UHGV virus genome: UHGV-1376088
From: a virus
DNA: 64,000 nucleotides
Reading direction: 5' to 3' (one strand)
The stretch's first letter is position 1. Every line of letters begins with the position of its first letter. The translations under genes and the position numbers were made by a program. Positions 13,249 through 25,894 of this stretch are shown here, piece after piece. Under the pieces are notes generated by a model. It worked only from the letters and a program-made list of their open reading frames with translations, ran no database searches and had not been told where the DNA came from.

Positions 13249-14913
13249 ATGTATATAGTAACAACAGCATTGCCGTATGCAAATGGAGATATCCATTTAG
13301 GTCATATATTAGAGCATATTCAAGCCGATATTTATGTTAGAAGACTTCGTCAATCTTACAATGATGTATATTTTATAGGGGCAGATGACTCCCACGGTAC
13401 TGCTATTGTTTTAGCGGCCGAAAGGGAAGGTATATCCCCAGAAGAACTGATTGAACGTTCGAGAAAAAGACATCATGAAGATATAGCTGGATTCGGCGTA
13501 GAATATGACAATTATTATACTACTCACTCTAAAGAAAATTTTGAACTTGTTAAAAATGCGTATTCTGATCTTGTTTCAAAAGGCCTGATTCGCAGAAAAA
13601 CAATTCAACAATTGTATGATCCGGAAAAAGAAATGTTTCTTCCTGATCGTTTTGTAAAAGGCGAATGTCCTGAATGCCATGCTCAAGAACAATATGGTGA
13701 CAACTGTGACTCTTGCGGTGCCGTTTATGAAGCATATAATCTGATCAATCCGAAATCGACATTAACTGGCGCCACTCCCGTATTGAAAGAGACGGAGCAT
13801 TTGTTCTTGAAAACAAGAATGAAATATAAACTGCTAAGAGAATGGGCTAAGCCTGGCTTTGAAATAAGAATGAATAGAAGTGCCAAATCCAGAATCGAAA
13901 ACTGGATTGGAGAGAATGGTGAAAACCTAAAAGAATGGTGTATCTCTAGGGATGCCCCATACTTCGGATTTAAGATTCCAAATGAAGAAAACAAATATTT
14001 TTACGTTTGGATGGATGCTCCATTTGGTTACATCGCTTCTTACCAAAACTTCCGCAATGCCGAGTTAGAAAAAGGCAACTCTCACCACAAACATGAAAAG
14101 TGTGCAAATCTTGTCCACTTTGTAGGAAAAGATATTTTACGGTTTCATACCATATTTTGGCCAATTGTTTTAGATGCTACGAATTTGAATCTGCCTTATA
14201 AAATATTTAGCCATGGTTTTGTTACTGTAAATGGCGAAAAAATGTCCAAATCGAAAGGGACATTTATTACTGCTAGAAAATTTTTGGATTCAGGAATCGA
14301 TCCGGAGCTTTTACGTTATTACTTTGCATCTAAACTTGGAAATAACGAAAAAGATGTTAACTTCGATATCGAAGACTTTGTAAGAACCATTAATGATGAT
14401 TTGATAGGAAAGCTGATAAATATTCCATCTCGCTTGGGCGCTATAATTAATAAGGCTTATGGCGGAAGAATTATAAGACCAGCCTGTTATGAAAATGATG
14501 AAAATGGTTCATATGCAATGTCGTCTTTGTCCGTTATACCTTATTTGGAGATATCAATTAATGGCGGTGATTATGCTACCGCAATCTCCCATGCATTAAA
14601 TATTGCAGCTAGAATTAATAATAGGATAGAATCTCTAAAAATATGGGAAGCAATGGATAAAAATTGTGATGACTTTAGGAAGTCTACTCTTCATGAGCAC
14701 TGCTCTGAAATGCTGATTCTGATACTTTTTGTATTTCAAGCATTAAGTCCAATTATGCCAAAGCTTTACGACAAATTTTTGCAATTTATGAACATTCTGG
14801 ATCCAAAGCTTCCATATGATCAAATCTCCGAAGATGGACACTATATCAATGAATATGAGCATTTACATAAACGGCTTGTATTGTTGGAAGTAAAATCTAA
14901 ACTTCTGGATTAA
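13249..14913 (+). CDS. metG: methionyl-tRNA synthetase (class I aaRS)
   Basis: 'ALPYANGDIHLGH' HIGH motif; zinc knuckle 'CPECHAQEQYGDNCDSCGAVY' (compare E. coli MetRS CPKC...C..CG); 'KMSKSKGT' KMSKS motif; 554 aa. Confidence 0.85.
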   Translation: MYIVTTALPYANGDIHLGHILEHIQADIYVRRLRQSYNDVYFIGADDSHGTAIVLAAEREGISPEELIERSRKRHHEDIAGFGVEYDNYYTTHSKENFELVKNAYSDLVSKGLIRRKTIQQLYDPEKEMFLPDRFVKGECPECHAQEQYGDNCDSCGAVYEAYNLINPKSTLTGATPVLKETEHLFLKTRMKYKLLREWAKPGFEIRMNRSAKSRIENWIGENGENLKEWCISRDAPYFGFKIPNEENKYFYVWMDAPFGYIASYQNFRNAELEKGNSHHKHEKCANLVHFVGKDILRFHTIFWPIVLDATNLNLPYKIFSHGFVTVNGEKMSKSKGTFITARKFLDSGIDPELLRYYFASKLGNNEKDVNFDIEDFVRTINDDLIGKLINIPSRLGAIINKAYGGRIIRPACYENDENGSYAMSSLSVIPYLEISINGGDYATAISHALNIAARINNRIESLKIWEAMDKNCDDFRKSTLHEHCSEMLILILFVFQALSPIMPKLYDKFLQFMNILDPKLPYDQISEDGHYINEYEHLHKRLVLLEVKSKLLD

Positions 14914-17028: not shown

Positions 17029-17487
17029 ATGACTAAGCCAATTTACGTTTATACCGATGGTGCATGTAGTGGTAATCCAGGCCCGGGCGGCTGGGGCGTA
17101 TTGATGCAATACGAAGGCAAAGAAAAAGAATTGTATGGTAGTGAGAAAAATACTACCAATAACAGAATGGAACTCATGGCCGCAATTCAGGGTTTAAATG
17201 CGATTAAACCTAAACAGTCTGGCCTATGGGATGTGGTTCTTTGCACTGATTCAAAATATGTCCGCAATGGTATTTGTGAATGGATTAGTCGATGGAAAGA
17301 AAACGGCTGGAAAACAAGTACAAACAAGCCGGTTAAGAATGCCGATTTATGGATGGAATTACATGAAGCTGTCAAAAAACATGATGTTCGTTTCATCTGG
17401 GTTCTTGGTCATAATGGACATATTGAAAATGAACGTGCAGACAGATTGGCCTGCCGCGGAAGAGATGAAGCAAAAGTCTCTGATTAA
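17029..17487 (+). CDS. rnhA: ribonuclease HI
   Basis: '[17 protein letters not shown]', 'RMELMAAI', 'TDSKYV', '[14 protein letters not shown]' are canonical RNase H1 motifs; SD 'aaaggag'. Confidence 0.85.
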
Positions 17488-17515: not shown

Positions 17516-17704
17516 ATGGAACTAAAAGAAAATGGAGTTTACCGCCACTATAAAGGCGGAGAATACAAATTAATAACTATTGGTGAACTTGAACACGACT
17601 TATCTCAAGTCGTTGTCTATAAAAGCATCACTAATGATAGAGTTTTTGTAAGACCTTTAGAGGAATTTGAAGATAAATTCGAATTCCTATATATGGGAGG
17701 GTAG
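17516..17704 (+). CDS. DUF1653-like small protein
   Basis: 'YRHYKGGEYKLI...VVYKS...VFVRPLEEFEDKFEF' matches the DUF1653 pattern; SD 'aaagg'; 3' end overlaps the tRNA start. Confidence 0.4.
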   Translation: MELKENGVYRHYKGGEYKLITIGELEHDLSQVVVYKSITNDRVFVRPLEEFEDKFEFLYMGG

Positions 17705-17772
17705 CTCAGTGGTCCGAGAGCGGGCGACTCATAATCGCTTGGTCACGGGTTCGAATCCCGTCCTTCCCACCA
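17695..17772 (+). tRNA. tRNA-Met/Ile2 (anticodon CAU)
   Basis: Acceptor gggaggg/ccttccc; D-arm gctc-agtggtccga-gagc; anticodon loop cuCAUaa; T-loop ttcgaat; CCA encoded. Confidence 0.8.
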
Positions 17773-17791
17773 TCTATATCTAGGAAAGCAA

Positions 17792-17965
17792 ATGTTGAAC
17801 GATAGCGATTACATGGACAACAATGGCGGCTATTACGAACTTGTTTGCATTGCCAAAATGGAATCTGATTCATCTTTAATGGCAGTCTATATCAATAAGC
17901 AGACGTATGAATATTGCGTTTGCCCTGCTTCTGAATTTGAAGAGAAGTTTAAACCCGTCCCATGA
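17792..17965 (+). CDS. DUF1653-like small protein (paralog)
   Basis: 'GGYYELVCIAKMESDSSLMAVY...EFEEKFKP' resembles the 17516 ORF; SD 'aggaaa'; below the track size cut-off (57 aa). Confidence 0.35.
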   Translation: MLNDSDYMDNNGGYYELVCIAKMESDSSLMAVYINKQTYEYCVCPASEFEEKFKPVP

Positions 17966-18304
17966 AAATCTGGAAAATCAAAAAGATACAAATCAAAGAA
18001 ATCCTTGAAACAAAAGGATATTTCTTTTGTAATAAATATAAGCATTCACATGACAAAGCAAGAAGAATTATGCGCGAGCTGTGCAAAGAGGGTTTAGCAG
18101 AAAAGTGTGCTAGCCCTGCTGGACAAGTGGATGCTGTTTGTATTAGGGCCATAAAATGAGCACAACGACTATTTTACTACTTGTTCTTGCCAGTATCGTT
18201 GGCGGAATTATTATCGGGTTTATTGTTTTTGCTTTGTATTTTGCAAAAGGTTTCAAAATTAATTTCTAAACCTTATCTTAGAATTTTTGTCTAAAGGAAA
18301 CAAA

Positions 18305-19882
18305 ATGGCATCACCATTATTTAAAACTTCTCGTATCAATGTCTCTACGGGAGCATCTGTATCTGTACAGTCCAATAAGGTTAATACAACAAATGAATCC
18401 GGCGGCACTGCTTATGCTATGACACATCAGCATGCCCTTGCGCAATATGCTGTAACCGGTATGCTTGACGGCTATCTTCATGTTGATGGTCGAACTCAGC
18501 TGTCTCGTATTATTGAGCTGGCTGAAAAATGTAACAATAAGTATGTTGCGCAAGTTGCAATTTATGCCCACGAAAAAGGCTTCATGAAAGATACTTCTGC
18601 TTTGTTGCTGGGATATCTGATGAAAAAAGACCGCGATTTGTTTAACGCAATTTTTAAACGTATCATTACAAATGGCCGAATGTTAAGAACTTTCGTTCAA
18701 ATCATTCGTTCCGGTACTTTTGGCAATCGCAGTTTTGGTACAAATGCCAAACGCCAAATCCAAGATTGGCTAAATTCCGCAACAGACAAAACAATTATTA
18801 ATGCCTCCATTGGTAATGATCCGTCTCTGAAAGACATTATCAAAATGGTTCATCCAAAAGCACCAAATGAAAATCGTAACCAACTTTATCGTTGGGTTTG
18901 CGATATGGATTACCAGGAAGATAAACTTCCTGAACAGCTTCAACTGTATTTAAAATTGAAGCGTAATCCAGAAAAAGCAGAAGAACTGCCGGATTTGCCG
19001 TTCCAAATGTATACCTCTATGGGTTTAACAACAGAAGGTTGGAAACATATTGCTAATAATGCGACATGGAATCAGACCCGTATGAACTTGGCAACATTTG
19101 AGCGACATGGTGTATTTGGTGATAAAAGTTTTGCCGACAGAATTGCTGAGAAGCTTACATCTGAGCGTGATATCATTCGAAGTAAAGCTATGCCATTTGC
19201 CATTTTCTCTGCCTTTAAAAAGGCGGGCGATATTAGCTATAATATCCGCAAGGCTTTGAATAAAGCTGCAGAAATTTCTCTGCAAAATGTTCCGAAATTG
19301 GAAGGTAAAACAGTTGTTGCTGTTGACCGTTCTGGATCTATGTCCAGTCTGATTAATAGTCGCTCAACTGTTCGTGTAATGGATGTTGCAGCTGTTCTTG
19401 TTGCTGCTTTGAAAAACAAAAATCCAGATTTGGAAATTGTTTTATTCAATGACACAGCGTCCATTTATAAGCCAAAAGGCAAAACTCTTTTTGGTATCAG
19501 CGAAGAGCTTTCTCGTATGGCAAGCGGCGGAACAGATTGTGGTGCCGCAATGAAGTTTATCAAAAACCGGTACACAGATAAAGGCATGCCCGATAATATC
19601 ATCATGATTTCAGACAATGAATCATGGTTAGGTATGAGCAAGAATTTCTGGACATCCACAGGAACAGTTGAACAACTGAAATTAATTCGTCGTTCAAATC
19701 CTAATACCCGAATGATCAATATTGACGTAACTCCAGGTTCAAGTTCACAAACAGTTCCTGAAGAATACGTACTAAATATCGGCGGCTTTAATGACGCAGT
19801 ATTCCAAATCGCATCATTGTTCTTTAATTCTAAAGGCAATAAAGACTTTTGGATTTCTGAAATTAATAAAGTAGAAATTTAA
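18305..19882 (+). CDS. rsr: Ro60 ortholog (Rsr-like; TROVE domain + C-terminal vWA/MIDAS)
   Basis: ~525 aa; C-terminal vWA with MIDAS 'VVAVDRSGSMSS'; N-terminal helical TROVE-like region; SD 'aaggaa' before ATG (the track start 18287 is a TTG); followed by tRNA-like Y-RNA candidates. Confidence 0.65.
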   Translation: MASPLFKTSRINVSTGASVSVQSNKVNTTNESGGTAYAMTHQHALAQYAVTGMLDGYLHVDGRTQLSRIIELAEKCNNKYVAQVAIYAHEKGFMKDTSALLLGYLMKKDRDLFNAIFKRIITNGRMLRTFVQIIRSGTFGNRSFGTNAKRQIQDWLNSATDKTIINASIGNDPSLKDIIKMVHPKAPNENRNQLYRWVCDMDYQEDKLPEQLQLYLKLKRNPEKAEELPDLPFQMYTSMGLTTEGWKHIANNATWNQTRMNLATFERHGVFGDKSFADRIAEKLTSERDIIRSKAMPFAIFSAFKKAGDISYNIRKALNKAAEISLQNVPKLEGKTVVAVDRSGSMSSLINSRSTVRVMDVAAVLVAALKNKNPDLEIVLFNDTASIYKPKGKTLFGISEELSRMASGGTDCGAAMKFIKNRYTDKGMPDNIIMISDNESWLGMSKNFWTSTGTVEQLKLIRRSNPNTRMINIDVTPGSSSQTVPEEYVLNIGGFNDAVFQIASLFFNSKGNKDFWISEINKVEI

Positions 19883-19996
19883 TTTTAGATTTACAAAACA
19901 AAAATGTGTGGTTTAATCACTTCTACTGAGTAAGTAGAGTAATAGGTATCTCATTTCTTGTTTTCGGGGTACCTATTGCTATGTTTACTTTAGAGT

Positions 19997-20073
19997 CTAA
20001 GTGTAGCGCAGTCCGGTAGCGCATCTGCTTTGGGAGCAGAGGGTTGCAGGTTCGAATCCTGCCTCTTAGACCA
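19997..20073 (+). tRNA. tRNA-Pro (anticodon UGG)
   Basis: D-arm gcgc-agtccggta-gcgc; anticodon loop uuUGGga; T-loop ttcgaat; one U-U mismatch in the acceptor; CCA encoded. Confidence 0.7.
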
Positions 20074-20086
20074 CATTACAATTTTC

Positions 20087-20210
20087 GGGTGGTTAGTTTA
20101 ATGGGAAAACATTAAGTAATCTTTCTACTATTGTCTGAAAAGAATGCTTGAGAGATTTACATTTCACGGCTAATGAAAAGATACAGGTTCGAGTCCTGTA
20201 CCACCCTCCA
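20087..20210 (+). ncRNA. tRNA-like RNA (Y RNA / YrlA-like candidate) with ~47-nt insert in place of anticodon arm
   Basis: Perfect 7-bp acceptor gggtggt/accaccc; D-arm gttt-aatggga-aaac; canonical T-arm acagg-ttcgagt-cctgt; CCA; 124 nt total with no canonical anticodon stem-loop. Confidence 0.5.
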
Positions 20211-20215
20211 TATAT

Positions 20216-20357
20216 GGGCTGTTGGCGAAATTGGTAGACGCAAGGGTCATTTATAACCTATCAAACTTGTCCGATAGGAATGCCGATAGGTTTACATTTT
20301 TAAATTGAAAACTTAAGGACAACCCTCGATTTGCAGGTTCGACTCCTGCACAGCCCG
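20216..20357 (+). ncRNA. tRNA-like RNA (Y RNA / YrlA-like candidate) with ~65-nt insert in place of anticodon arm
   Basis: Perfect acceptor gggctgt/acagccc; class-II-type D-arm gcg-aaattggtaga-cgc; T-arm gcagg-ttcgact-cctgc; long-range helix agggt...accct enclosing ~72 nt with internal hairpins (cctatc/gatagg, ccgatagg repeated twice). Confidence 0.5.
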
Positions 20358-20367
20358 CCCTTTTAAT

Positions 20368-20619
20368 GCGAAGATAGTTTAATTGGTAAAACGCCACGCA
20401 AATCTTAGAATAATAACCATTATGTAGAGCCAAGTGGCTCGAAGAGCATACTCTATATTAAGATAGGGCTGGGTGCAATCCCGGGTATAGGCTAACGATC
20501 TATACTGAATGTAAATATTTTATGTCGAAAGACAGATAGCTCAATCCTTTAAGGAATGGTCTAAGATGGATAATTTCCGCGGTAAAGTGGTCATGCGGTG
20601 TCGATAGCTGCTCTTCGCT
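20368..20619 (+). ncRNA. tRNA-like element with ~175-nt insertion (intron-containing tRNA or large Y-like RNA)
   Basis: 5' gcgaaga-ta-gttt-aattggta-aaac D-arm and 3' ...gcggt-gtcgata-gctgc-tcttcgc acceptor pair 7/7 across 250 nt; the insert contains repeat A. Confidence 0.35.
20419..20516 (+). repeat. repeat element A (shared with 63372-63510)
   Basis: attatgtagRgccaagtggYtcgaagMgca ... ccgggtatagRYtaacgaYctatactgaaYRtaaa is shared between the two loci. Confidence 0.6.
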
Positions 20620-20655
20620 CCCTATTTAATTAACTGAATATCCAAAGGATTTAAG

Positions 20656-21183
20656 ATGCAGACGATTGCAATAAACCTAATAGGTGCACCCGGAACGGGC
20701 AAAAGCACAATAGCATCTGAGCTCTTTGCCAAGATGAAGTGGCTTGGATATGATGTTGAGTTGGTTTCCGAATACGCAAAAGAATTGGTTTGGGAACAAA
20801 GAAACGAAACTTTCAAGAATGAACTGTATCTATTTGCAAAACAGCATCATAGAATGTTTAGATTAAATGGTAAGGTGAAGTATATTATTACAGACCGCCC
20901 ATTAATTTTGTCTATTTTTTATAATCAAAAATATGGAAATGGCAGCAAAACATTCCGGCAGCTTGTATTGGAAGAAACAAATAAGTTTCAAAATATCAAT
21001 GTATTTCTGAATAGAACCAAACCATATGTTCAAAATGGCAGAAATCAAAGTGAAGAAGAATCCAATGAATTTGCAAAAGAAATATTCGAATCTCTTGAAA
21101 AATATTGCAATGGATATCTAATTCTAGACGCTGTTGAAAACCAGGCGTCTGAACATATATTGAATTTTGCAAAACAAGAATAA
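20656..21183 (+). CDS. P-loop NTPase/kinase-like protein
   Basis: Walker A 'GAPGTGKST' at the N-terminus, 'ITDRP' Walker-B-like; 175 aa; fold resembles small nucleoside/nucleotide kinases. Confidence 0.5.
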   Translation: MQTIAINLIGAPGTGKSTIASELFAKMKWLGYDVELVSEYAKELVWEQRNETFKNELYLFAKQHHRMFRLNGKVKYIITDRPLILSIFYNQKYGNGSKTFRQLVLEETNKFQNINVFLNRTKPYVQNGRNQSEEESNEFAKEIFESLEKYCNGYLILDAVENQASEHILNFAKQE

Positions 21184-21196
21184 GAATAGGTACAAC

Positions 21197-21397
21197 ATGA
21201 AAGAGTACACATTCTCATACAGGTTTGATAATAAAGCTTGGTCTTTCAGTATTTATGCAAACAGCGAAGAAGAAGCCAAGAGAAAGTTCTGGGCTTTAAA
21301 AGAAAATGGCAAATATTGCGGCGAGATTGTATGCAAAGTGAATGCTACAAAGCCGTACAGTTTTATTAAATCCATTTTGTCGAAGTTTAAGACATAA
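21197..21397 (+). CDS. small hypothetical protein
   Basis: ATG-initiated 66-aa ORF (the track start 21167 is a TTG). Confidence 0.35.
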   Translation: MKEYTFSYRFDNKAWSFSIYANSEEEAKRKFWALKENGKYCGEIVCKVNATKPYSFIKSILSKFKT

Positions 21398-21413
21398 GTT
21401 TAAGTTTAAATGC

Positions 21414-21506
21414 GCTCCCGTACCATAAAAGGATAATGGAACTGACTTCTAATCAGTAAGCCAAACGAAGGCGAGTATGCGGGTTCGAGTCCTGCCGGGA
21501 GTGCCA
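21414..21506 (+). tRNA. class-II-shaped tRNA with anticodon UCU (Arg codon AGA), long variable arm, G73
   Basis: Acceptor gctcccg/cgggagt; D ccat/atgg; anticodon stem actga/tcagt with loop cuUCUaa; 21-nt variable arm with gcc/ggc hairpin; T-loop ttcgagt; CCA encoded. Confidence 0.6.
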
Positions 21507-21612
21507 AAATGCCACAATCTATATATTATTATGGATTTCATTAAAAATAATGTTACTATTGATGAAGTAACTGGATGTTGGAATTGGAATAAATCTGTAA
21601 CAAGTGCAGGTT

Positions 21613-21870
21613 ATGGTCAATCTTAGCCCTACCGGGCATGCCAAATATAAAGGATTCAATATGGTATATTTAAATCTATTTGTGAAATATGTGAATCCAC
21701 GTGTTAGTGGAAGTACGGTTATTCAGGTCAAAGAAGACCATTTGAATTCTGAATTTGACTATATAGTTGAAGATGCTCTTTATGAAAAATTGAAAGAGTC
21801 TCTTCAAATGCCAGAAAGAGTTATAATTGAGAATATTGTAATTCTTGGGCGTTGTGAAAAAGACGATTAA
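21613..21870 (+). CDS. hypothetical protein
   Basis: ORF after the tRNA; weak RBS; start uncertain (ATG at 21613 or 21661). Confidence 0.3.
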   Translation: MVNLSPTGHAKYKGFNMVYLNLFVKYVNPRVSGSTVIQVKEDHLNSEFDYIVEDALYEKLKESLQMPERVIIENIVILGRCEKDD

Positions 21871-22075
21871 GACATAAACTGCCTGGCATGATGCAGTTTT
21901 AACTATCTAATCTGCCATTATTATTCTCAGTCTGGCATTCGCCAAAATGTTGCCGCATTTTGAGAATGATAAAATCATAGATGGTTATTTTCTGGTCCTA
22001 GCAGTCAATTTAGTTGACCCAGTACACTGTAAGCTGGAACTAAAGATAACGATTTAAACCCTGTTCTCCCTAAGC

Positions 22076-22146
22076 AATAATGTAGTTCAGTGGTAGAGCG
22101 TCTGCAATTTGGCAGAATGGCGGTGGTTCGATTCCACCCTTTATTG
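22076..22146 (+). tRNA. tRNA-like gene with non-canonical (6- or 8-nt) anticodon loop, identity undetermined (UUU/UUG region)
   Basis: Acceptor aataatg/ctttatt (6/7 pairs); D gttc-agtggta-gagc; stem tctgc/gcaga around 'aatttg'; T-arm ggtgg-ttcgatt-ccacc; one nt shorter than canonical; possible pseudogene or frameshift-type tRNA. Confidence 0.4.
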
Positions 22147-22631
22147 ACGAGAACAGGTACTCAATTTAATAATGAATCTTTATTCAGATTCATTTAGTCT
22201 GACAATGGTGTGATGAAATCTTAAGGGCTGTTCTTTGGATATTCTTAGTCTAATATTGAAATGTGCATTTCTTTATTGGGCTCTGTTTTATTTGAAGATA
22301 AAGCTTAAAAGGTTGCGATAGCAATAAAAACAATAAGGTGTTGCACAGCGCCTGTTTGGAGTATATTGTGAATGCTTGCACGTGTGCCGCGGAGGTACAA
22401 GGTTCCCGGAGTGGGATAAGTCAGACTAAATGTATTTGAAGCTAATTAAAGCTTAAAGATTTAAGCCCTGCTGATTTCTTATATAATATTGTTTATTATG
22501 ATTATTCTTATATTAGATAAATACTATTTTATCTTTTTCATTTTTCAGCAGGCATATTTAAGCCCTATTAGTTTATTCCGCAATATAGCTAAAATATTGT
22601 TCTAAAAATTAATAGGCAAAATAAAGATTAT

Positions 22632-22706
22632 AGCGAATTGGTGTAATTGGTAACACACAGGGCTCATAACCCTGAGTTATAGGTTCGAGTCCTATGTTCG
22701 CTTCCA
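22632..22706 (+). tRNA. tRNA-Met/Ile2 (anticodon CAU), second copy
   Basis: Acceptor agcgaat/gttcgct; D gtgt-aattggta-acac; anticodon stem caggg/ccctg with loop cuCAUaa; T-loop ttcgagt; CCA. Confidence 0.8.
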
Positions 22707-23491
22707 GATCCTTTCCTAGTGAGGATAACCACTGGTGACTTTTATGGATTTTGAACAGTGAAAATTCTTTGCCCCTTATGCAATAGTTAAGGCGTTTTCC
22801 GTGATGCGAGAAGTTCACGGCGCAATCCACAACGCGATAATCGTGGCGCTGCCCTTCGAAGCGATACGTTAGGGGTCTTCCTTTAGGCTTAATAAAAGGT
22901 AGTTTTTAGAGATTTATATTAAAAGCTCTATAGTTCTGTAGAATACAGAGCAATGGGTTCGTTGCCTGTTCCCATTGCTATGTGTTTTGACTTCCCGGCG
23001 GCCACTGGTTAATGGTCTGACTTAGATTGGTTCAAAGAAATCAATCCCCAAGGTGAGGGTATCGCACCTGTTGTAGGTTGTTCATAAAACCTTCGGTCTT
23101 TTGTGCTCTTTATTCCTTAATACAGGAGCATCGATTGGGTAATGAGACATAAGGTCCCAGTGGGTTTTAGCTTTTTTAACCACGCGAGTGATGTCGCAAA
23201 AGCAAAATGCATTTATGTATTGTTTACAGTATATAAAGTGATAGGTTTCTGCAGGACCTATTGCTGTATGTATTAATATCCCGCGAACCTTCGGTAAATG
23301 GTTCACCTTGCCAAAAGGAAAATTGGAAGTCTGGCATTGCTATGGAAGAATGCTGGTTCGTTGGTCCATCCTTAAAACCGATAAGCTTTTTGTGCATTTA
23401 CGGCTTTGACGATAAATGCCCCGAACTATTAATGTGAATGTATAGCCAGAGTGAATCCTTCTGGGGAGTGATGTCCGAAAAGGATTACAAT

Positions 23492-23578
23492 GCGAATGTG
23501 GCGAAATTTGGTATACGCGCTTGTCTTAGAAGCAGGTGTCCTAGTGGCGTGTGGGTTCGATCCCCTCCATTCGCACCA
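23492..23578 (+). tRNA. tRNA-Leu (anticodon UAG)
   Basis: Class II: D gcg-aaatttggtata-cgc; loop cuUAGaa; ~14-nt variable arm; T-loop ttcgatc; A73; CCA. Confidence 0.7.
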
Positions 23579-23584
23579 ATTCAT

Positions 23585-23660
23585 GCTGGAATAGCTCAAT
23601 TGGTAGAGCAACCATTTTGTAAGCGGTAGGTTGTTAGTTCGATTCTAATTTCCAGCACCA
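23585..23660 (+). tRNA. tRNA-Thr (anticodon UGU)
   Basis: Acceptor gctggaa/ttccagc; D gctc-aattggta-gagc; loop uuUGUaa; T-loop ttcgatt; CCA. Confidence 0.75.
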
Positions 23661-23663
23661 AAT

Positions 23664-23754
23664 GGAGGGACGGCAACGACGGTGGTGTTGCGGCAGACTG
23701 TAAATCTGTTCCGAAAGGTAAACATTGTAGGTTCGACTCCTATTCCCTCCACCA
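23664..23754 (+). tRNA. tRNA-Tyr (anticodon GUA)
   Basis: Acceptor ggaggga/tccctcc; loop cuGUAaa; long variable arm; T-loop ttcgact; CCA. Confidence 0.75.
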
Positions 23755-23758
23755 AATA

Positions 23759-23847
23759 CCGCGAGTGGCGTAACAAGGCAACCGCATCAGACTTAAAATC
23801 TGAGGATCGTAATGATCGTGTGGGTTCGACTCCCACCTCGCGGACCA
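23759..23847 (+). tRNA. tRNA-Leu (anticodon UAA)
   Basis: Acceptor ccgcgag/ctcgcgg; anticodon stem tcaga/tctga with loop cuUAAaa; variable arm hairpin; T-stem gtggg/cccac; A73; CCA. Confidence 0.75.
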
Positions 23848-23893
23848 ATACTGTATTGATAAATTCAATGCTATATAAAAATAGGTTTGATTT

Positions 23894-24217
23894 ATGAAAA
23901 CAGTTAAATTATCAGATTGCTCAAAGTTCCCCAAAGCTAAAGAAGATGGGGAACTTTTTGCCAGAACAAAACTTTTCCATGAGCTTTATAAAACCGAACA
24001 TACCTTAAGAATCGATTTTGATGGTACTTATGGAATTGCTCATTCGTTTTTAGAAGGACTCTTCGGTTTTCTTATTGATTCTGGATGTTTAACAATGAAA
24101 GAGATATTCAATAGGCTAACTATTAAAGCGGATGAATATCCCTATATAATTGAGGGAATATTCTGTATATTGGTGGAATACGATGAAAGAAACTTTGATA
24201 ATAGCCCCTGTAGTTGA
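23894..24217 (+). CDS. hypothetical protein
   Basis: 107-aa ORF immediately after the tRNA block. Confidence 0.4.
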   Translation: MKTVKLSDCSKFPKAKEDGELFARTKLFHELYKTEHTLRIDFDGTYGIAHSFLEGLFGFLIDSGCLTMKEIFNRLTIKADEYPYIIEGIFCILVEYDERNFDNSPCS

Positions 24218-24350
24218 AGTTAAAAAGATCCCTTCGTTTGCCGAGTTTATAGAAATGAGAACGCGGCAACTTCTAAGAGAATTAGACAAGCATTCAAAAA
24301 ATCTAGAAAAAGAGACTAATAAGCTTGTAGATATTATCTCTAATAGTTAA
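24183..24350 (+). CDS. small hypothetical protein
   Basis: ATG with 'ggtgg' RBS; overlaps the previous ORF's 3' end; speculative. Confidence 0.3.
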   Translation: MKETLIIAPVVEVKKIPSFAEFIEMRTRQLLRELDKHSKNLEKETNKLVDIISNS

Positions 24351-24377
24351 AATTTTAAAACAATAAAGTGTAGATGT

Positions 24378-24452
24378 TGGCATGTAGCTCAGCGGCAGAG
24401 CAGACGGCTGTTAACCGTCCGGTCGTAGGTTCGATCCCTACCGTGCCAGCCA
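24378..24452 (+). tRNA. tRNA-Asn (anticodon GUU)
   Basis: D gctc-agcggcag-agc; anticodon stem gacgg/ccgtc with loop cuGUUaa; T-loop ttcgatc; CCA. Confidence 0.75.
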
Positions 24453-24646
24453 AAAGATTATGGGCAGGTAGTTTAAGAGGAAAAAACCACGTGGGTGTAT
24501 ACCTTCGACGTTATTGGAATCGAGGCCAATTCTGTCCACTAATTTCCCATTTCCCATATATTTCAATCATCAATCCTTTCCACAGTACAGGGTTAAAATA
24601 TTTTGACTAATAGCGCCAACTAGCGGTCAAAGCTAATGGGAATTTC

Positions 24647-24733
24647 ACAACCATGACGGAATTGGTAGACGTATCGGTACTTAATGTGCCGAAGCCGGAG
24701 AGTGGCGTGCAGGTTCAAATCCTGCTGGTTGTG
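24647..24733 (+). tRNA. class-II tRNA, anticodon UAA (Leu-type) with U37 and G73
   Basis: Acceptor acaacca/tggttgt; D acg-gaattggtaga-cgt; anticodon stem cggta/tgccg with loop cuUAAug; 16-nt variable arm; T-loop ttcaaat; no CCA encoded. Confidence 0.6.
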
Positions 24734-24754
24734 ATACATAACAGAGGTGTAAAC

Positions 24755-24955
24755 ATGTCCAAGAAAAGATGTTTTGTTCTTTACGAACGAGAAGGCAAAA
24801 GAAATTCGGCCTTTATTGAAATTGATGATGTCTATATTACTGGTACTTTATTTAGATCTTTGAAATCTCATGTTTCTGATAAGATAGCTGACCTATATAC
24901 GGATAGGTATGGCTATGTATTAATTTTGGATTTCAAAGTTATTGCCTCTGTTTAG
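24755..24955 (+). CDS. small hypothetical protein
   Basis: ATG with SD 'agagg' just after the tRNA; the track ORF 24653 starts inside the tRNA. Confidence 0.4.
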   Translation: MSKKRCFVLYEREGKRNSAFIEIDDVYITGTLFRSLKSHVSDKIADLYTDRYGYVLILDFKVIASV

Positions 24956-24972
24956 TTTAAACGAATTTTAAT

Positions 24973-25046
24973 GCGGGCATGGTATAGAGGTTGTGCCTTA
25001 GCCTTCCAAGCTAATGAGAGGGATTCGAGTTCCCTTGCCCGCTCCA
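24973..25046 (+). tRNA. tRNA-Gly (anticodon UCC)
   Basis: Acceptor gcgggca/tgcccgc; anticodon stem ttagc/gctaa with loop cuUCCaa; T-arm aggga-ttcgagt-tccct; CCA. Confidence 0.75.
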
Positions 25047-25231
25047 ACAATTTAAGACAGGCGCTTGCAAGTTTGAGGGAAGTCATATTAGGCCCCGTGT
25101 CCATACAGCCTCCACGCACTCTGCCTGTCTAACCCTTATGTCCTGAATGCCTGCTACGACTACATCTGACTTTTTATCGGACATTAAGTGTCGAGCTATT
25201 TTTGTCAGGACTCTCTATAAAAGGTAACAGA

Positions 25232-25669
25232 ATGTCTGACTGGGAATATCAATCTTTTATTGCAGAAGACGATTTACTTCCTACCTTCTGTTATAGAATT
25301 AAGCATAGTGGTAATACTATTTCTATTCAATTTGGGCCTGTAAAACAATACAACGGTCTGCCGGTTTATTCTGTATGTCTATCAATTTATCGAAAACGTA
25401 AGCGTATTGATATTGATTTTAGCGCTCGATCTGTAACAGGAACTATTGGGACTACAGGATTACTGTTAGCAAAGCAAAGCTTCGACTTGTTTATCAAAGA
25501 ATTCTTTGATGAAGTGGATACGGATGGTGTTATCTTATCAGTACAAGGTGCTGATGTCAGACGATATAAAGTTTATAAGCGTACCCTTGAAAGAATGGGG
25601 TATACTGAAGGTAAGCTTTTGGGCTCTTTATGTATGAGTAAAGTTTACTATCGAGAAAGTCTTAAATGA
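25232..25669 (+). CDS. hypothetical protein
   Basis: ATG with SD 'aaaagg' (the track start 25202 is a TTG). Confidence 0.45.
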   Translation: MSDWEYQSFIAEDDLLPTFCYRIKHSGNTISIQFGPVKQYNGLPVYSVCLSIYRKRKRIDIDFSARSVTGTIGTTGLLLAKQSFDLFIKEFFDEVDTDGVILSVQGADVRRYKVYKRTLERMGYTEGKLLGSLCMSKVYYRESLK

Positions 25670-25689
25670 CTAAAATTTATATATTTTTC

Positions 25690-25780
25690 ACCACCTTAGC
25701 TTAATGGTAAAGCAGCGAGCTTATACCTCGTAACGACAGATAATCGGCTGATCTGGGTTCGAGTCCCGGAGGTGGTACCA
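25690..25780 (+). tRNA. class-II-shaped tRNA with anticodon UAU (Ile AUA), long variable arm
   Basis: Acceptor accacct/aggtggt; D gctt-aatggta-aagc; anticodon stem gcgag/ctcgt with loop cuUAUac; ~21-nt variable region; T-loop ttcgagt; A73; CCA. Confidence 0.55.
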
Positions 25781-25806
25781 TTAGAAAGTGTCGAGAGAGT
25801 TAAAAT

Positions 25807-25894
25807 GGAGAAGTGGCAGAGTGGACTATTGCACCTGACTTGAAATCAGCCGATCGGAAACGGTCCGTGGGTTCGAATCCCATCTTCTCCTCCA
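25807..25894 (+). tRNA. tRNA-Ser (anticodon UGA)
   Basis: Acceptor ggagaag/cttctcc; D gca/tgc; anticodon stem ctga/tcag with loop cuUGAaa; long variable arm; T-loop ttcgaat; U73; CCA. Confidence 0.65.

What the first reader, a model, noticed from the sequence alone, without database searches (positions are those of the whole stretch)
18305..20357. Phage-encoded Ro60 (Rsr) ortholog followed by two tandem tRNA-like RNAs lacking anticodon arms (Y-RNA/YrlA-like)
The 525-aa protein has Ro60 architecture: a TROVE-like helical N-terminus plus a C-terminal vWA with a DxSGS MIDAS. Downstream of its gene, after an intervening tRNA-Pro, come two RNAs with perfect acceptor stems, D-arms and canonical T-arms/CCA.

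In both, 47-65-nt structured inserts replace the anticodon arm. This is the architecture described for bacterial and phage YrlA Y RNAs that tether Ro60.

Such modules in phages are rare and their roles (RNA quality control, tRNA mimicry, anti-defence) are open.
Basis: partly seen in the sequence, partly recalled or inferred. Interest (0 to 1): 0.8.

Follow-up and report, generated by a model that had tools for sequence, protein, structure and literature searches.

The report
Phage Ro60 with tRNA-embedded Y RNAs
An uncultured ~185-kb phage encodes a Ro60 RNA-binding ring protein followed by tRNA-shaped RNAs that carry the Ro60-docking motif of Y RNAs as an extra arm, which is a known partnership in a layout not described before.

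Summary
The protein (18305-19882) is a genuine Ro60. An alignment profile hits five solved Ro60 structures over their full length (E 1e-17 to 1e-21). The AlphaFold model's 13 best PDB matches are all Ro60.

Downstream of tRNA-Pro lie three tRNA-shaped RNAs, not two. RNA1 and RNA2 share a 44-46-nt module: helix, internal loop UUG/AUGC, and a short capped hairpin. Covariation supports this structure in relatives.

The module matches the conserved stem and internal loop of bacterial YrlA/YrlB consensus sequences (the presumed Ro60 site). The difference is that the stem normally formed by the RNA ends is closed by a tetraloop. A model built only from Y-like RNAs beside distant phage Ro60 genes, closed in silico, finds exactly these two sites in 64 kb (36 bits, E ~3e-6; next best 17 bits).

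RNA1 keeps an anticodon-like arm, and only RNA1 encodes CCA. Element order equals YrlA circularly permuted back to native tRNA topology, so Rfam YrlA fails (17.8 bits against a threshold of 69).

Verdict: a real Ro60/Y-RNA system and a new variant of a known kind. Ro60 binding itself is untested.

The parts
18305..19882 (+). Ro60 (TROVE ring plus vWA/MIDAS) gene, 525 aa
   Evidence: Pfam vWA_Ro60 6e-12. Profile against PDB: phiRo60 1.2e-21, Ro60 about 3e-19, Rsr 1.3e-17, all full length. AF2 pLDDT 81. Foldseek top 13 hits are all Ro60, TM 0.64-0.76. Homologues at about 40% identity carry Pfam TROVE and are named 60 kDa SS-A/Ro.
19921..19995 (+). Long imperfect hairpin between the Ro60 stop codon and tRNA-Pro. 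It has no Y-RNA motif. Probably an mRNA 3' stabiliser or RNase III-type processing site (inferred).
   Evidence: z = -4.6. Conserved in relatives, with 10 pairs showing changes on both sides.
19997..20073 (+). Ordinary tRNA-Pro(UGG) with encoded CCA
   Evidence: ARAGORN. Rfam tRNA 66.5 bits.
20087..20210 (+). RNA1: tRNA-shaped RNA (acceptor, D-arm, anticodon-like arm, T-arm, CCA) with a Y-RNA module inserted after nucleotide 26
   Evidence: Rfam tRNA 46.8 bits. Acceptor and T-arm scan. Covariation in alignment A1. Deleting the insert in silico gives a 74-nt cloverleaf.
20116..20161 (+). Closed Y-RNA module of RNA1: P1 GUAAUCUUUC/GAGAGAUUUAC, loop UACUAUUG / AUGCUU, P2 UCU-GAAA-AGA
   Evidence: R1 49.5 bits. 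R2, built from distant Y RNAs only, 36.2 bits, E 2.7e-6. Pair counts.
20162..20178 (+). Anticodon-like arm of RNA1 (TTTCA CGGCTAA TGAAA). It has G33 instead of U33.
20216..20357 (+). RNA2: tRNA-shaped RNA with a class-II-type D-arm and a closed anticodon stem (20243-20247 / 20322-20326). Inside that stem are the Y module and a second hairpin with loop AUUGAAAAC. The 3' tail is GCCC.
   Evidence: The near-identical copy in L004 scores 39.3 bits with Rfam tRNA.
20253..20296 (+). Closed Y-RNA module of RNA2: P1 AUAACCUAUC/GAUAGGUUUAC, loop AAACUUG / AUGCC, P2 UCC-GAUA-GGA
   Evidence: R1 60.4 bits. R2 35.9 bits, E 3.1e-6.
20368..20619 (+). RNA3: third tRNA-shaped RNA. Its body is paralogous to the type C body, its T-arm is degenerate, and its roughly 190-nt structured insert has no Y motif. 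Function unknown.
   Evidence: Covariation. No Rfam family matched.
25140..25211 (+). Standalone open-form Y-like RNA (YrlB-like, 72 nt): GUCCUGA AUGC C UGCUACGAC UACAU ... GUCGAGC UAUUUUUG UCAGGAC
   Evidence: Sequence. Conserved in clade genomes with compensatory changes in the terminal stem and helix. Classified as open form.

Best explanation
RNA1 and RNA2 are Y-RNA-type partners of the phage Ro60, built as tRNA/Y-RNA chimeras. They sit on the same strand as Ro60 inside a tRNA array with 6-13-nt spacers.

Inferred steps:
- They are cut out like tRNAs by RNase P and 3'-end processing, leaving native tRNA ends. RNA1 has an encoded CCA.
- The inserted module folds into a helix (P1), an asymmetric internal loop (5'-..UUG / 5'-AUGC..) and a short hairpin (P2, UCY/RGA, mostly with a GNRA loop).
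- This module is the presumed Ro60-docking element of Y RNAs. The only difference is that the stem normally made by the RNA's 5' and 3' ends is capped by a tetraloop.
- Ro60 binds this element on the outside of its ring, as in known Ro60-Y RNA complexes.
- The intact tRNA body (acceptor/T minihelix and D/T-loop elbow) serves as the effector or tether domain. By analogy with RYPER complexes it may also gate access to the Ro60 cavity.

Shown here: the Ro60 fold, the tRNA shape, the structure and conservation of the module, its match to Y-RNA consensus elements, and its linkage to Ro60.

Not shown: physical binding, processing, and the biological role (structured-RNA decay, tRNA quality control or anti-defence).
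For: 1. Protein. Full-length profile hits to phiRo60, human and Xenopus Ro60 and Rsr. Foldseek top 13 hits are all Ro60.

2. Module structure. 90.5% of cells are paired, against 79% in shuffles. Covariation score is 0.423 against 0.19 in shuffles and at most 0.12 with slid partners.

3. Invariant nucleotides. UUGUC, GAAUGC and UUUACA are invariant in the 17-20 representative copies aligned, across four tRNA bodies whose acceptor stems differ; the 35 copies were retrieved with a pattern that requires these three blocks.

4. Match to known Y RNAs. Rfam consensus YrlA reads cggCgaAUGCu..CUAc...cUuGucGcc. YrlB reads GcGaAUGCUgGcCgGGAUUACA...AUUUGuCgcgC. These share both loop strands, the closing G-C and A-U pairs and the UACA end with the module.

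5. Distant Ro60 loci (33-41% identity). The motif RAUGC-N8-10-UACAU occurs 34 times on the Ro60 strand and once on the other strand. Shuffles give a mean of 2.2. The RNAs fold as open Y RNAs. L162 5509-5648 scores 43.7 bits with YrlA.

6. Independent model. R2 was built only from those distant RNAs, closed in silico. In both strands of the 64-kb window it finds exactly the two modules, at 36.2 and 35.9 bits, E about 3e-6. The next hit scores 17.1 bits.

7. Standalone Y-like RNA with the same motif in the same window and across the clade.

8. Linkage. Every related locus with enough flank has Ro60 (55-100% identity) upstream on the same strand, within about 0.2-1.5 kb.

9. Recurrence. L164, whose Ro60 is 36% identical, has a tRNA with a closed module in its anticodon loop.
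Against: - No binding or expression data exist.
- The GNC part of the published GNCGAAN0-1G motif is not conserved here. Only GAAUG is.
- The Rfam YrlA model does not recognise the RNAs (17.8 and 15.8 bits against a threshold of 69). Those weak hits are the tandem-tRNA artefact that Chen et al. 2014 warned about.
- Linkage to Ro60 within one syntenic clade cannot be separated from membership of the same tRNA array.
- The GAAA loop used to close the training sequences for R2 was my choice. It favours RNA1 by a few bits. RNA2, with GAUA, scores the same.
- Removing the insert leaves a canonical-size cloverleaf, which is also what an intron would leave.
Confidence: 0.72

Rival explanations
1. They are ordinary decoding tRNA genes interrupted by a small intron-like insertion. 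The insert is removed, by itself or by a protein, to give 73-75-nt tRNAs. Ro60 is merely a neighbour in the array.
For: - Deleting the insert in silico, from after nucleotide 26 to the end of UUUACA, gives cloverleaves that ARAGORN calls as tRNAs in 25 of 25 copies.
- True group I introns interrupt a tRNA just upstream of Ro60 in L006 and L008.
- Some copies have canonical anticodon loops: CUGAUAA, CUGGUAU and AUUCCAA.
Against: - The insert is 44-46 nt, far below any self-splicing intron, and hits no Rfam intron or ribozyme family.
- No RNA ligase or splicing endonuclease was seen nearby.
- No insert-free allele exists in about 20 genomes.
- The commonest loop, CGGCUAA, lacks U33 and would give a class-I tRNA-Ser.
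- The anticodon-like loop varies among copies with the same acceptor stem: UCC, GGU and AUCC.
- CCA is encoded in almost all normal tRNAs of the array (two odd ones excepted) but only in some of these RNAs.
- The insert matches the Y-RNA consensus element.
Confidence: 0.07
2. The module is a Ro60-type site, but the RNAs are not tethers or gates for the phage Ro60. They could be decoys that titrate a host Rsr, PNPase or other tRNA-binding factors. They could also be Ro60 clients, that is, odd tRNAs that Ro60 chaperones or marks.
For: - The module matches the Y-RNA consensus element.
- The free NCCA 3' end resembles the single-stranded ends that Ro60 threads through its cavity. This rests on established knowledge summarised in PMC12135203, not on a test here.
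- phiRo60 and its Yrl RNAs attenuate host PNPase (PMC12135203).
Against: - Strict co-occurrence with the phage's own Ro60 gene.
- A standalone Y RNA is also present, so the phage already encodes a classical partner.
- Nothing is known about the host or whether it has an Rsr.
Confidence: 0.15
3. They are decaying tRNA pseudogenes with chance insertions, and the resemblance to Y RNAs is coincidental.
For: The T-arm of RNA3 and of its short homologue is degenerate. CCA is lost in several copies.
Against: - Compensatory changes occur in the acceptor, T, anticodon-like and module helices.
- Loop nucleotides are invariant across 35 copies.
- The R2 hits have E about 3e-6, with nothing else in the window above 17 bits.
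Confidence: 0.02

Closest known systems
YrlA Y RNA (Rfam RF02553; S. Typhimurium, M. smegmatis, mycobacteriophages; Chen et al. 2014, PMC4201824)
   Same: - Encoded within 4 kb of Ro60 on the same strand.
- Modular: a Ro60-site stem and internal loop (GA AUGC ... / ...UUG UC) plus a tRNA-like domain with T-arm, acceptor stem and D-arm and conserved elbow nucleotides.
- A stem-loop lies between the Ro60-site helix and the T-arm (the V arm in YrlA, the anticodon-like arm here).
- M. smegmatis YrlA is even cut by RNase P and receives CCA.
   Different: - Circularly permuted relative to YrlA. Here the acceptor stem carries the 5' and 3' ends, as in a real tRNA, and the Ro60-type stem is capped by a tetraloop.
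- The genes sit as units of a tRNA array.
- The GNC of GNCGAAN0-1G is not conserved.
- Rfam gives 17.8 bits against a threshold of 69.
YrlB (Rfam RF02565) and the short Y-like RNAs beside phage Ro60 genes (L159, L160, L162, L163, L170 here)
   Same: The same 5' strand (GaAUGC-N8-10-UUACA) and the same 3' strand (AUUUG-UC). The standalone RNA at 25140-25211 is of this kind.
   Different: RNA1 and RNA2 carry the element as an internal arm of a tRNA, not as the stem formed by the RNA ends.
Yrl1/Yrl2 of Thermus phage phiLo with phiRo60 (PDB 9KOP, 9L5Y; PMC12135203)
   Same: The closest solved structure to this protein (E 1e-21). It is a phage Ro60 with adjacent Y-like RNAs, and binding and PNPase recruitment were shown experimentally.
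   Different: The phiLo RNAs are stem-bulge-stem Y RNAs upstream of the gene, with no tRNA body. The proteins are only about 20-23% identical.
D. radiodurans Yrn1
   Same: According to Chen et al. 2014, it has the native order D-like element, anticodon-like arm, T-arm. It is therefore not permuted as YrlA is.
   Different: In Yrn1 the Ro60-binding stem takes the place of the acceptor stem and the D-arm is doubtful. Here the acceptor stem is intact and the Ro60-type element is an extra arm.

Membership tests
Ro60 / Rsr (TROVE) protein family | Ring of HEAT-like helices (TROVE) capped by a vWA domain | tested here: met
   AF2 model pLDDT 81, pTM 0.79. The 13 best Foldseek hits against PDB are all Ro60, Rsr or phiRo60, with 500-530 aligned columns, TM 0.64-0.76 and E 1e-13 to 3e-18.
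Ro60 / Rsr (TROVE) protein family | Sequence homology over the full length | tested here: met
   Profile against PDB gives 1.2e-21 to 1.3e-17. PHROG 850 3.6e-37. Pfam vWA_Ro60 6e-12. Pfam TROVE reaches only 16.6 bits, below its cut-off of 23, in this sequence, but it is present in the 40%-identical homologues.
Ro60 / Rsr (TROVE) protein family | MIDAS motif DxSxS...T...D in the vWA domain | tested here: met
   D341, S343, G344, S345, T410 and D437 are invariant in 22 homologues.
Ro60 / Rsr (TROVE) protein family | Binds Y RNA and misfolded RNA | not testable with these tools
   Needs biochemistry.
YrlA (Rfam RF02553) | Reaches the family's gathering score | tested here: not met
   17.8 and 15.8 bits against 69. 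Both hits span the T-arm of one unit and the D-arm of the next. Nothing reaches the gathering score anywhere in the window.
YrlA (Rfam RF02553) | 5' and 3' ends pair to form the Ro60-binding stem, and the acceptor stem is a closed hairpin (order T, acceptor, D) | tested here: not met
   The ends lie in the acceptor stem and the order is native: acceptor, D, module, anticodon-like arm, T. The Ro60-type stem is closed by GAAA or GAUA.
YrlA (Rfam RF02553) | GNCGAAN0-1G motif on the 5' strand of the Ro60 site | tested here: inconclusive
   GAAUG(C) is invariant. The preceding GNC is replaced by variable paired or loop nucleotides. Many distant phage Y-like RNAs have the full motif, for example GCCGAAUG and GUCGAAUG.
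YrlA (Rfam RF02553) | tRNA-like domain with T-arm, D-arm, acceptor stem and elbow nucleotides | tested here: met
   U8, A14, G18G19 and T-loop UUCGAGU are present. Rfam tRNA 46.8 bits.
YrlA (Rfam RF02553) | Encoded within 4 kb of Ro60 on the same strand | tested here: met
   205 and 334 nt downstream of the stop codon, and the same in all relatives.
Y RNA (functional class) | Shares the conserved stem and internal-loop element of RNAs encoded beside Ro60 homologues | tested here: met
   Strand-specific motif enrichment, 34 against 1. R2, built from distant loci only, hits both modules at E about 3e-6.
Y RNA (functional class) | Physically bound by Ro60 | not testable with these tools
   Needs RIP, EMSA or a structure.
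tRNA (decoding) | Canonical anticodon loop (U33, purine 37) that is conserved among orthologues | tested here: not met
   RNA1 has CGGCUAA, with G33. The loop differs among copies that share an acceptor stem. RNA2 has no 7-nt anticodon loop.
Group I intron in a tRNA | Match to the group I catalytic core | tested here: not met
   No Intron_gpI hit at E up to 10 in 19880-20660. The same model finds true introns in L006 and L008 at 84-95 bits.

The most novel reading that the evidence does not exclude
RNA1-type molecules are both working tRNA-like substrates and Ro60 adaptors. They would be processed, given CCA, and possibly aminoacylated or bound by EF-Tu, synthetases or the ribosome, so that Ro60 is delivered to the tRNA and translation machinery or tRNAs are delivered to Ro60. 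They would also represent the un-permuted ancestral form from which YrlA-type Y RNAs arose, by opening the Ro60 stem and closing the acceptor stem.
Probability: 0.2. Interest if true: 0.8.

Novelty: new variant of a known kind. Interest (0 to 1): 0.58.

Why it matters
Bacterial and phage Y RNAs were proposed in 2014 to derive from tRNAs. All described YrlA RNAs, however, are permuted, with a closed acceptor hairpin.

Here the same Ro60-type element sits as an extra arm inside otherwise native tRNA genes of a phage tRNA array, next to Ro60 and alongside a classical small Y RNA. This provides:
- a natural un-permuted form that makes the tRNA-origin hypothesis testable;
- a compact consensus for the presumed Ro60 site in a large, mostly unannotated group of phage Ro60 loci, which Rfam models largely miss;
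- candidates for asking what the tRNA-like half of a Y RNA recruits.

The motif RAUGC-N8-10-UACAU paired with YUUG gives a simple way to annotate Y RNAs beside phage Ro60 genes.

Tried and rejected
- **Rfam YrlA and Y_RNA on the region and the whole window.** Only sub-threshold tandem-tRNA artefacts appeared.
- **Group I or other ribozyme identity for the inserts.** No Rfam hit.
- **TTTACA as a -35 box.** No matching -10 element, and promoter-like sites are not enriched.
- **An alternative helix CATTA/TAATG enclosing the whole RNA1 insert.** It is not conserved in paralogues (reading).
- **R1, the module model built from the clade, on 18 distant Ro60 loci.** No hits. This at first suggested a clade-only oddity. 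The link appeared only after comparison with the YrlA/YrlB consensus lines and after allowing for permutation.
- **First pattern scan of viral contigs.** Saturated by chance hits; a tighter pattern was then used.
- **Genome scan.** Two chance matches only, so there is no host clue.
- **Search through a neighbouring AAA gene for relatives lacking Ro60.** Uninformative.
- **Hairpin 19921-19995 as the Y RNA.** Conserved, but it lacks the motif.
- **GUCGAAAG in RNA3 as a Ro60 motif.** It is a GAAA-capped hairpin without the other features.
- **Literature searches for short tRNA inserts in phages and for T4 stable RNAs.** Nothing relevant was found.
- **Myxococcus phage Mx1, the closest cultured Ro60 at 35% identity.** Only a doubtful motif match.
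Full report
**What is at the site**

All genes in the region are on the + strand. The ORF from ATG 18305 to the stop at 19880-19882 encodes 525 aa. ARAGORN finds tRNA-Pro(UGG) at 19997-20073, one of a 14-gene tRNA array spanning 17695-25894.

A scan for T-arms with complementary 7-bp acceptor strands finds three long tRNA-shaped units directly after tRNA-Pro, separated by 5-13 nt:
- 20087-20207, 121 nt, tail TCCA.
- 20216-20357, 142 nt, tail GCCC.
- 20368-20619, 252 nt, tail TCCC.

Rfam's tRNA model scores the first at 46.8 bits (E 9e-9) with a 63-nt insertion.

**The protein is a Ro60**

- Pfam gives vWA_Ro60 at 6e-12 and a sub-threshold TROVE hit.
- phmmer hits the Thermus phage phiLo Ro60 (9KOP, 9L5Y) over residues 32-518.
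- A profile of seven clade proteins hits phiRo60 (1.2e-21), human and Xenopus Ro60 (about 3e-19) and D. radiodurans Rsr (1.3e-17), all over the full length.
- Of 3268 homologues with E below 1e-10, those at about 40% identity carry Pfam TROVE plus vWA_Ro60 and are named "60 kDa SS-A/Ro ribonucleoprotein".
- An AlphaFold2 model from 22 sequences has pLDDT 81 and pTM 0.79. Its 13 best Foldseek matches in the PDB are all Ro60 structures, with TM 0.64-0.76.
- The MIDAS residues D341, S343, G344, S345, T410 and D437 are invariant.

The refutation criterion "protein lacking the TROVE fold" is therefore not met.

**Anatomy of RNA1 and RNA2**

Related phage contigs were retrieved in three ways: through the protein, through DNA patterns and through exact-protein look-ups. 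They yield 35 distinct copies of insert-bearing tRNA-shaped RNAs. All come from one clade of 170-190-kb uncultured phages.

The copies fall into four body types, A to D, with different acceptor stems. All contain one shared 44-46-nt module:
- Helix P1 of 10-11 bp with a bulged U.
- An asymmetric internal loop whose 5' side ends in UUG and whose 3' side begins with AUGC.
- Helix P2 of 3-4 bp (UCY/RGA), capped mostly by GNRA tetraloops.
- The 3' strand of P1 ends in UUUACA.

Pair counting supports this structure. Of all cells, 90.5% are paired, against 79% in shuffles. The covariation score is 0.423, against 0.19 in shuffles and at most 0.12 when partners are slid. A covariance model of the module (R1) hits the window only at 20116-20161 and 20253-20296.

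In RNA1 the module lies between nucleotide 26 and a retained 5-bp/7-nt anticodon-like arm. That arm covaries, reading TTTCA/TGAAA, TTTCT/AGAAG, TTTCC/GGAAG or TTCTA/TAGAG in different copies. In RNA2 the module and a second hairpin lie inside a closed anticodon stem. That stem reads AGGGT/ACCCT here and AGGAG/CTCCT in L003.

**Are they interrupted tRNAs?**

Removing the insert in silico gives 73-75-nt cloverleaves that ARAGORN accepts in 25 of 25 cases. Several observations argue that the module is the functional centre rather than an intron:
- The commonest loop, CGGCUAA, has G33 and would make a class-I tRNA-Ser.
- The loop differs among copies with the same acceptor stem: UCC, GGU and AUCC.
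- No insert-free allele exists.
- CCA is encoded in almost all normal tRNAs of the array (two odd ones excepted) but only in some of these RNAs.
- The module loop is more conserved than the anticodon-like loop.

**The link to Y RNAs**

Rfam YrlA does not recognise the RNAs, scoring 17.8 and 15.8 bits against a threshold of 69. Both weak hits run from the T-arm of one unit to the D-arm of the next. This is the "dimeric tRNA" artefact described by Chen et al. 2014 (PMC4201824).

The consensus lines printed by cmscan are informative, however. YrlA reads cggCgaAUGCu-uggGgaaCUAc...AcUuGucGcc. YrlB reads GcGaAUGCUgGcCgGGAUUACA...AUUUGuCgcgC. The module reads ...UUUG-UCY-[loop]-RGA-AUGC-N-[P1 strand]-UUUACA. 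The module and the Y RNAs thus share:
- Both strands of the internal loop.
- The two closing pairs, G-C and A-U.
- The UACA end of the helix strand.

GAAUG is the 3' part of the GNCGAAN0-1G motif that Chen et al. link to Rsr recognition.

**Independent comparative evidence**

I fetched 18 loci with phage Ro60 genes 33-41% identical to this one. In these loci the motif RAUGC-N8-10-UACAU occurs 34 times on the Ro60 strand and once on the other strand. Shuffled sequences give a mean of 2.2.

These sites fold as classical open Y RNAs of 60-150 nt. They have a terminal stem ending ..GA/UC.., a loop AUGC(N) opposite N3-8 YUUG, an 8-10-bp helix and then UACAU. Two of them carry YrlA-type tRNA-like domains:
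- L162 5509-5648, which scores 43.7 bits with YrlA.
- L170 5535-5668.

**The formal test**

I took 15 of these distant RNAs and joined the last three terminal-stem pairs with GAAA, which closes and permutes the element. I aligned them (A10) and built model R2 without using any sequence from the clade.

Searched with filters off against both strands of the 64-kb window, R2 finds exactly the two modules. They score 36.2 and 35.9 bits, E about 3e-6. The next hit scores 17.1 bits, E 0.12.

There is one caveat. The GAAA cap was my choice and matches the loop of RNA1. RNA2, which has GAUA, scores the same.

**More of the system**

The same motif search finds a standalone open-form Y-like RNA in the window at 25140-25211, between tRNA-Gly and the next ORF. 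It is conserved in the clade, with compensatory changes in the terminal stem (UCCUGA/UCAGGA, CCUCGA/UCGAGG) and in the helix.

The phage therefore encodes Ro60, one classical small Y RNA and two tRNA/Y chimeras.

In every related locus with enough flank, Ro60 (55-100% identity) lies upstream on the same strand. The chimeras start about 0.2-1.5 kb after its stop codon. Each genome has one to three chimeras, in varying combinations of body types.

Outside the clade, L164 (Ro60 36% identical) has a 130-nt tRNA with a closed module in its anticodon loop, UUUG-UUUC-AACUC-GAAA-AUGC-UAUAUUGAAC-UACAU. It is flanked by two open Y RNAs. The architecture thus recurs.

**Topology**

Read 5' to 3', RNA1 runs as follows: acceptor 5' strand, D-arm, P1 5' strand, loop ..UUG, UCY, cap, RGA, AUGC, P1 3' strand ending UACA, stem-loop, T-arm, acceptor 3' strand.

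This is exactly the order obtained by cutting YrlA open in its acceptor hairpin loop and closing its terminal stem. The RNAs are circular permutations of YrlA that restore native tRNA ends. The anticodon-like arm occupies the place of YrlA's "V" stem-loop.

It is an inference that this reflects the ancestral state. An alternative is secondary re-permutation.

**Mechanism**

The following are inferred from established Ro60/Y-RNA biology (PMC4201824, PMC12135203), not shown here:
- Co-transcription with Ro60 and the tRNA array. No enrichment of promoter-like or terminator-like sites separates them.
- Excision by RNase P and 3' processing.
- Docking of the module on the outer face of the Ro60 ring.
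- Use of the tRNA body as an effector or tether domain, or as a gate.

**RNA3 and the hairpin**

RNA3 has a body paralogous to type C, a degenerate T-arm and a roughly 190-nt insert with several covarying helices and GNRA loops. Short forms of 151 nt occur in L002 and L143. It carries no Y motif and matches no Rfam family, and it remains unexplained.

The conserved hairpin at 19921-19995 lacks the motif. It is most simply a 3' stabiliser or processing site for the Ro60 mRNA, left in place once RNase P cuts at tRNA-Pro.

**Comparison and novelty**

Ro60 genes are annotated in at least 116 deposited phage genomes. Y RNAs beside phage Ro60 genes were reported in 2014 and again in 2025, so the partnership itself is known.

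What is not in Rfam or in the papers I could read is the un-permuted, tRNA-embedded form. The simple motif that marks Y RNAs across this large group of phage Ro60 loci is also absent from those sources. The closest cultured phage Ro60, from Myxococcus phage Mx1, is only 35% identical.

I rate this a new variant of a known kind. Confidence that the module is a Ro60 site is about 0.7.

Noticed in passing
window 20368-20619: Third tRNA-shaped RNA (RNA3) with a roughly 190-nt structured insert unrelated to the Y module. It has GNRA-capped hairpins and a conserved GGAUAAYUUCCGCGGUAAA stretch. Homologues of 246 nt (L004) and 151 nt (L002, L143) exist. No Rfam match. Function unknown.
   Followed up: partly
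window 25140-25211: Standalone 72-nt open-form Y-like RNA inside the tRNA array, 5.3 kb downstream of Ro60. The listed TTG-start ORF at 25202 overlaps it, so the real start of that gene is probably the ATG at 25233.
   Followed up: yes
window 21414-21506 and 25690-25780: tRNA-Arg(UCU) and tRNA-Ile(UAU) carry roughly 18-nt extra arms in the variable region, which is unusual for these isoacceptors. The Arg insert is present or absent among relatives: 89-93 nt in the window, L001, L002, L006 and L008, against 76-77 nt in L003, L004 and L005.
   Followed up: no
window 22075-22148: tRNA-like gene that ARAGORN calls tRNA-??? with a shortened anticodon loop (anticodon 'tt'). Rfam tRNA scores it 51 bits.
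   Followed up: no
L006 3609-3918 and L008 3608-3916: A tRNA just upstream of Ro60 is interrupted by a genuine group I intron (Rfam 84-95 bits). The window has an uninterrupted tRNA-Met at the corresponding place.
   Followed up: partly
L004 9146-9292: Another long tRNA (147 nt, with ACCA end) carrying a roughly 78-nt anticodon-loop insert of yet another kind, with no Y motif. Insert-bearing tRNAs of several types occur in these arrays.
   Followed up: no
L171 6160-7290 and L170 5535-6036: Distant phage Ro60 loci carry five to eight tandem Y-like RNAs directly downstream of Ro60. In L171 one copy runs straight into a D-arm (GUAGCUCAAUA), which suggests further tRNA/Y arrangements.
   Followed up: partly
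window 13249-14913: The phage encodes a full-length class I methionyl-tRNA synthetase (Pfam tRNA-synt_1g, 3e-137) 3.4 kb upstream of Ro60. RNase H (17029-17487) and tRNA-Met lie between them, so the region forms a block of RNA- and translation-related genes.
   Followed up: no
window 7083-8876: ORF with YadA head, stalk and anchor domains, that is, a trimeric autotransporter adhesin. This hints at a Gram-negative host. No host could be assigned.
   Followed up: no
L004 about 5038-5041; L008 about 6095: The Ro60 gene in L004 and the dTMP-kinase-like gene in L008 each contain an apparent frameshift. The L008 shift is in an A-run. These could be assembly errors or pseudogenes. In L004 the chimeric RNAs are intact.
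   Followed up: no
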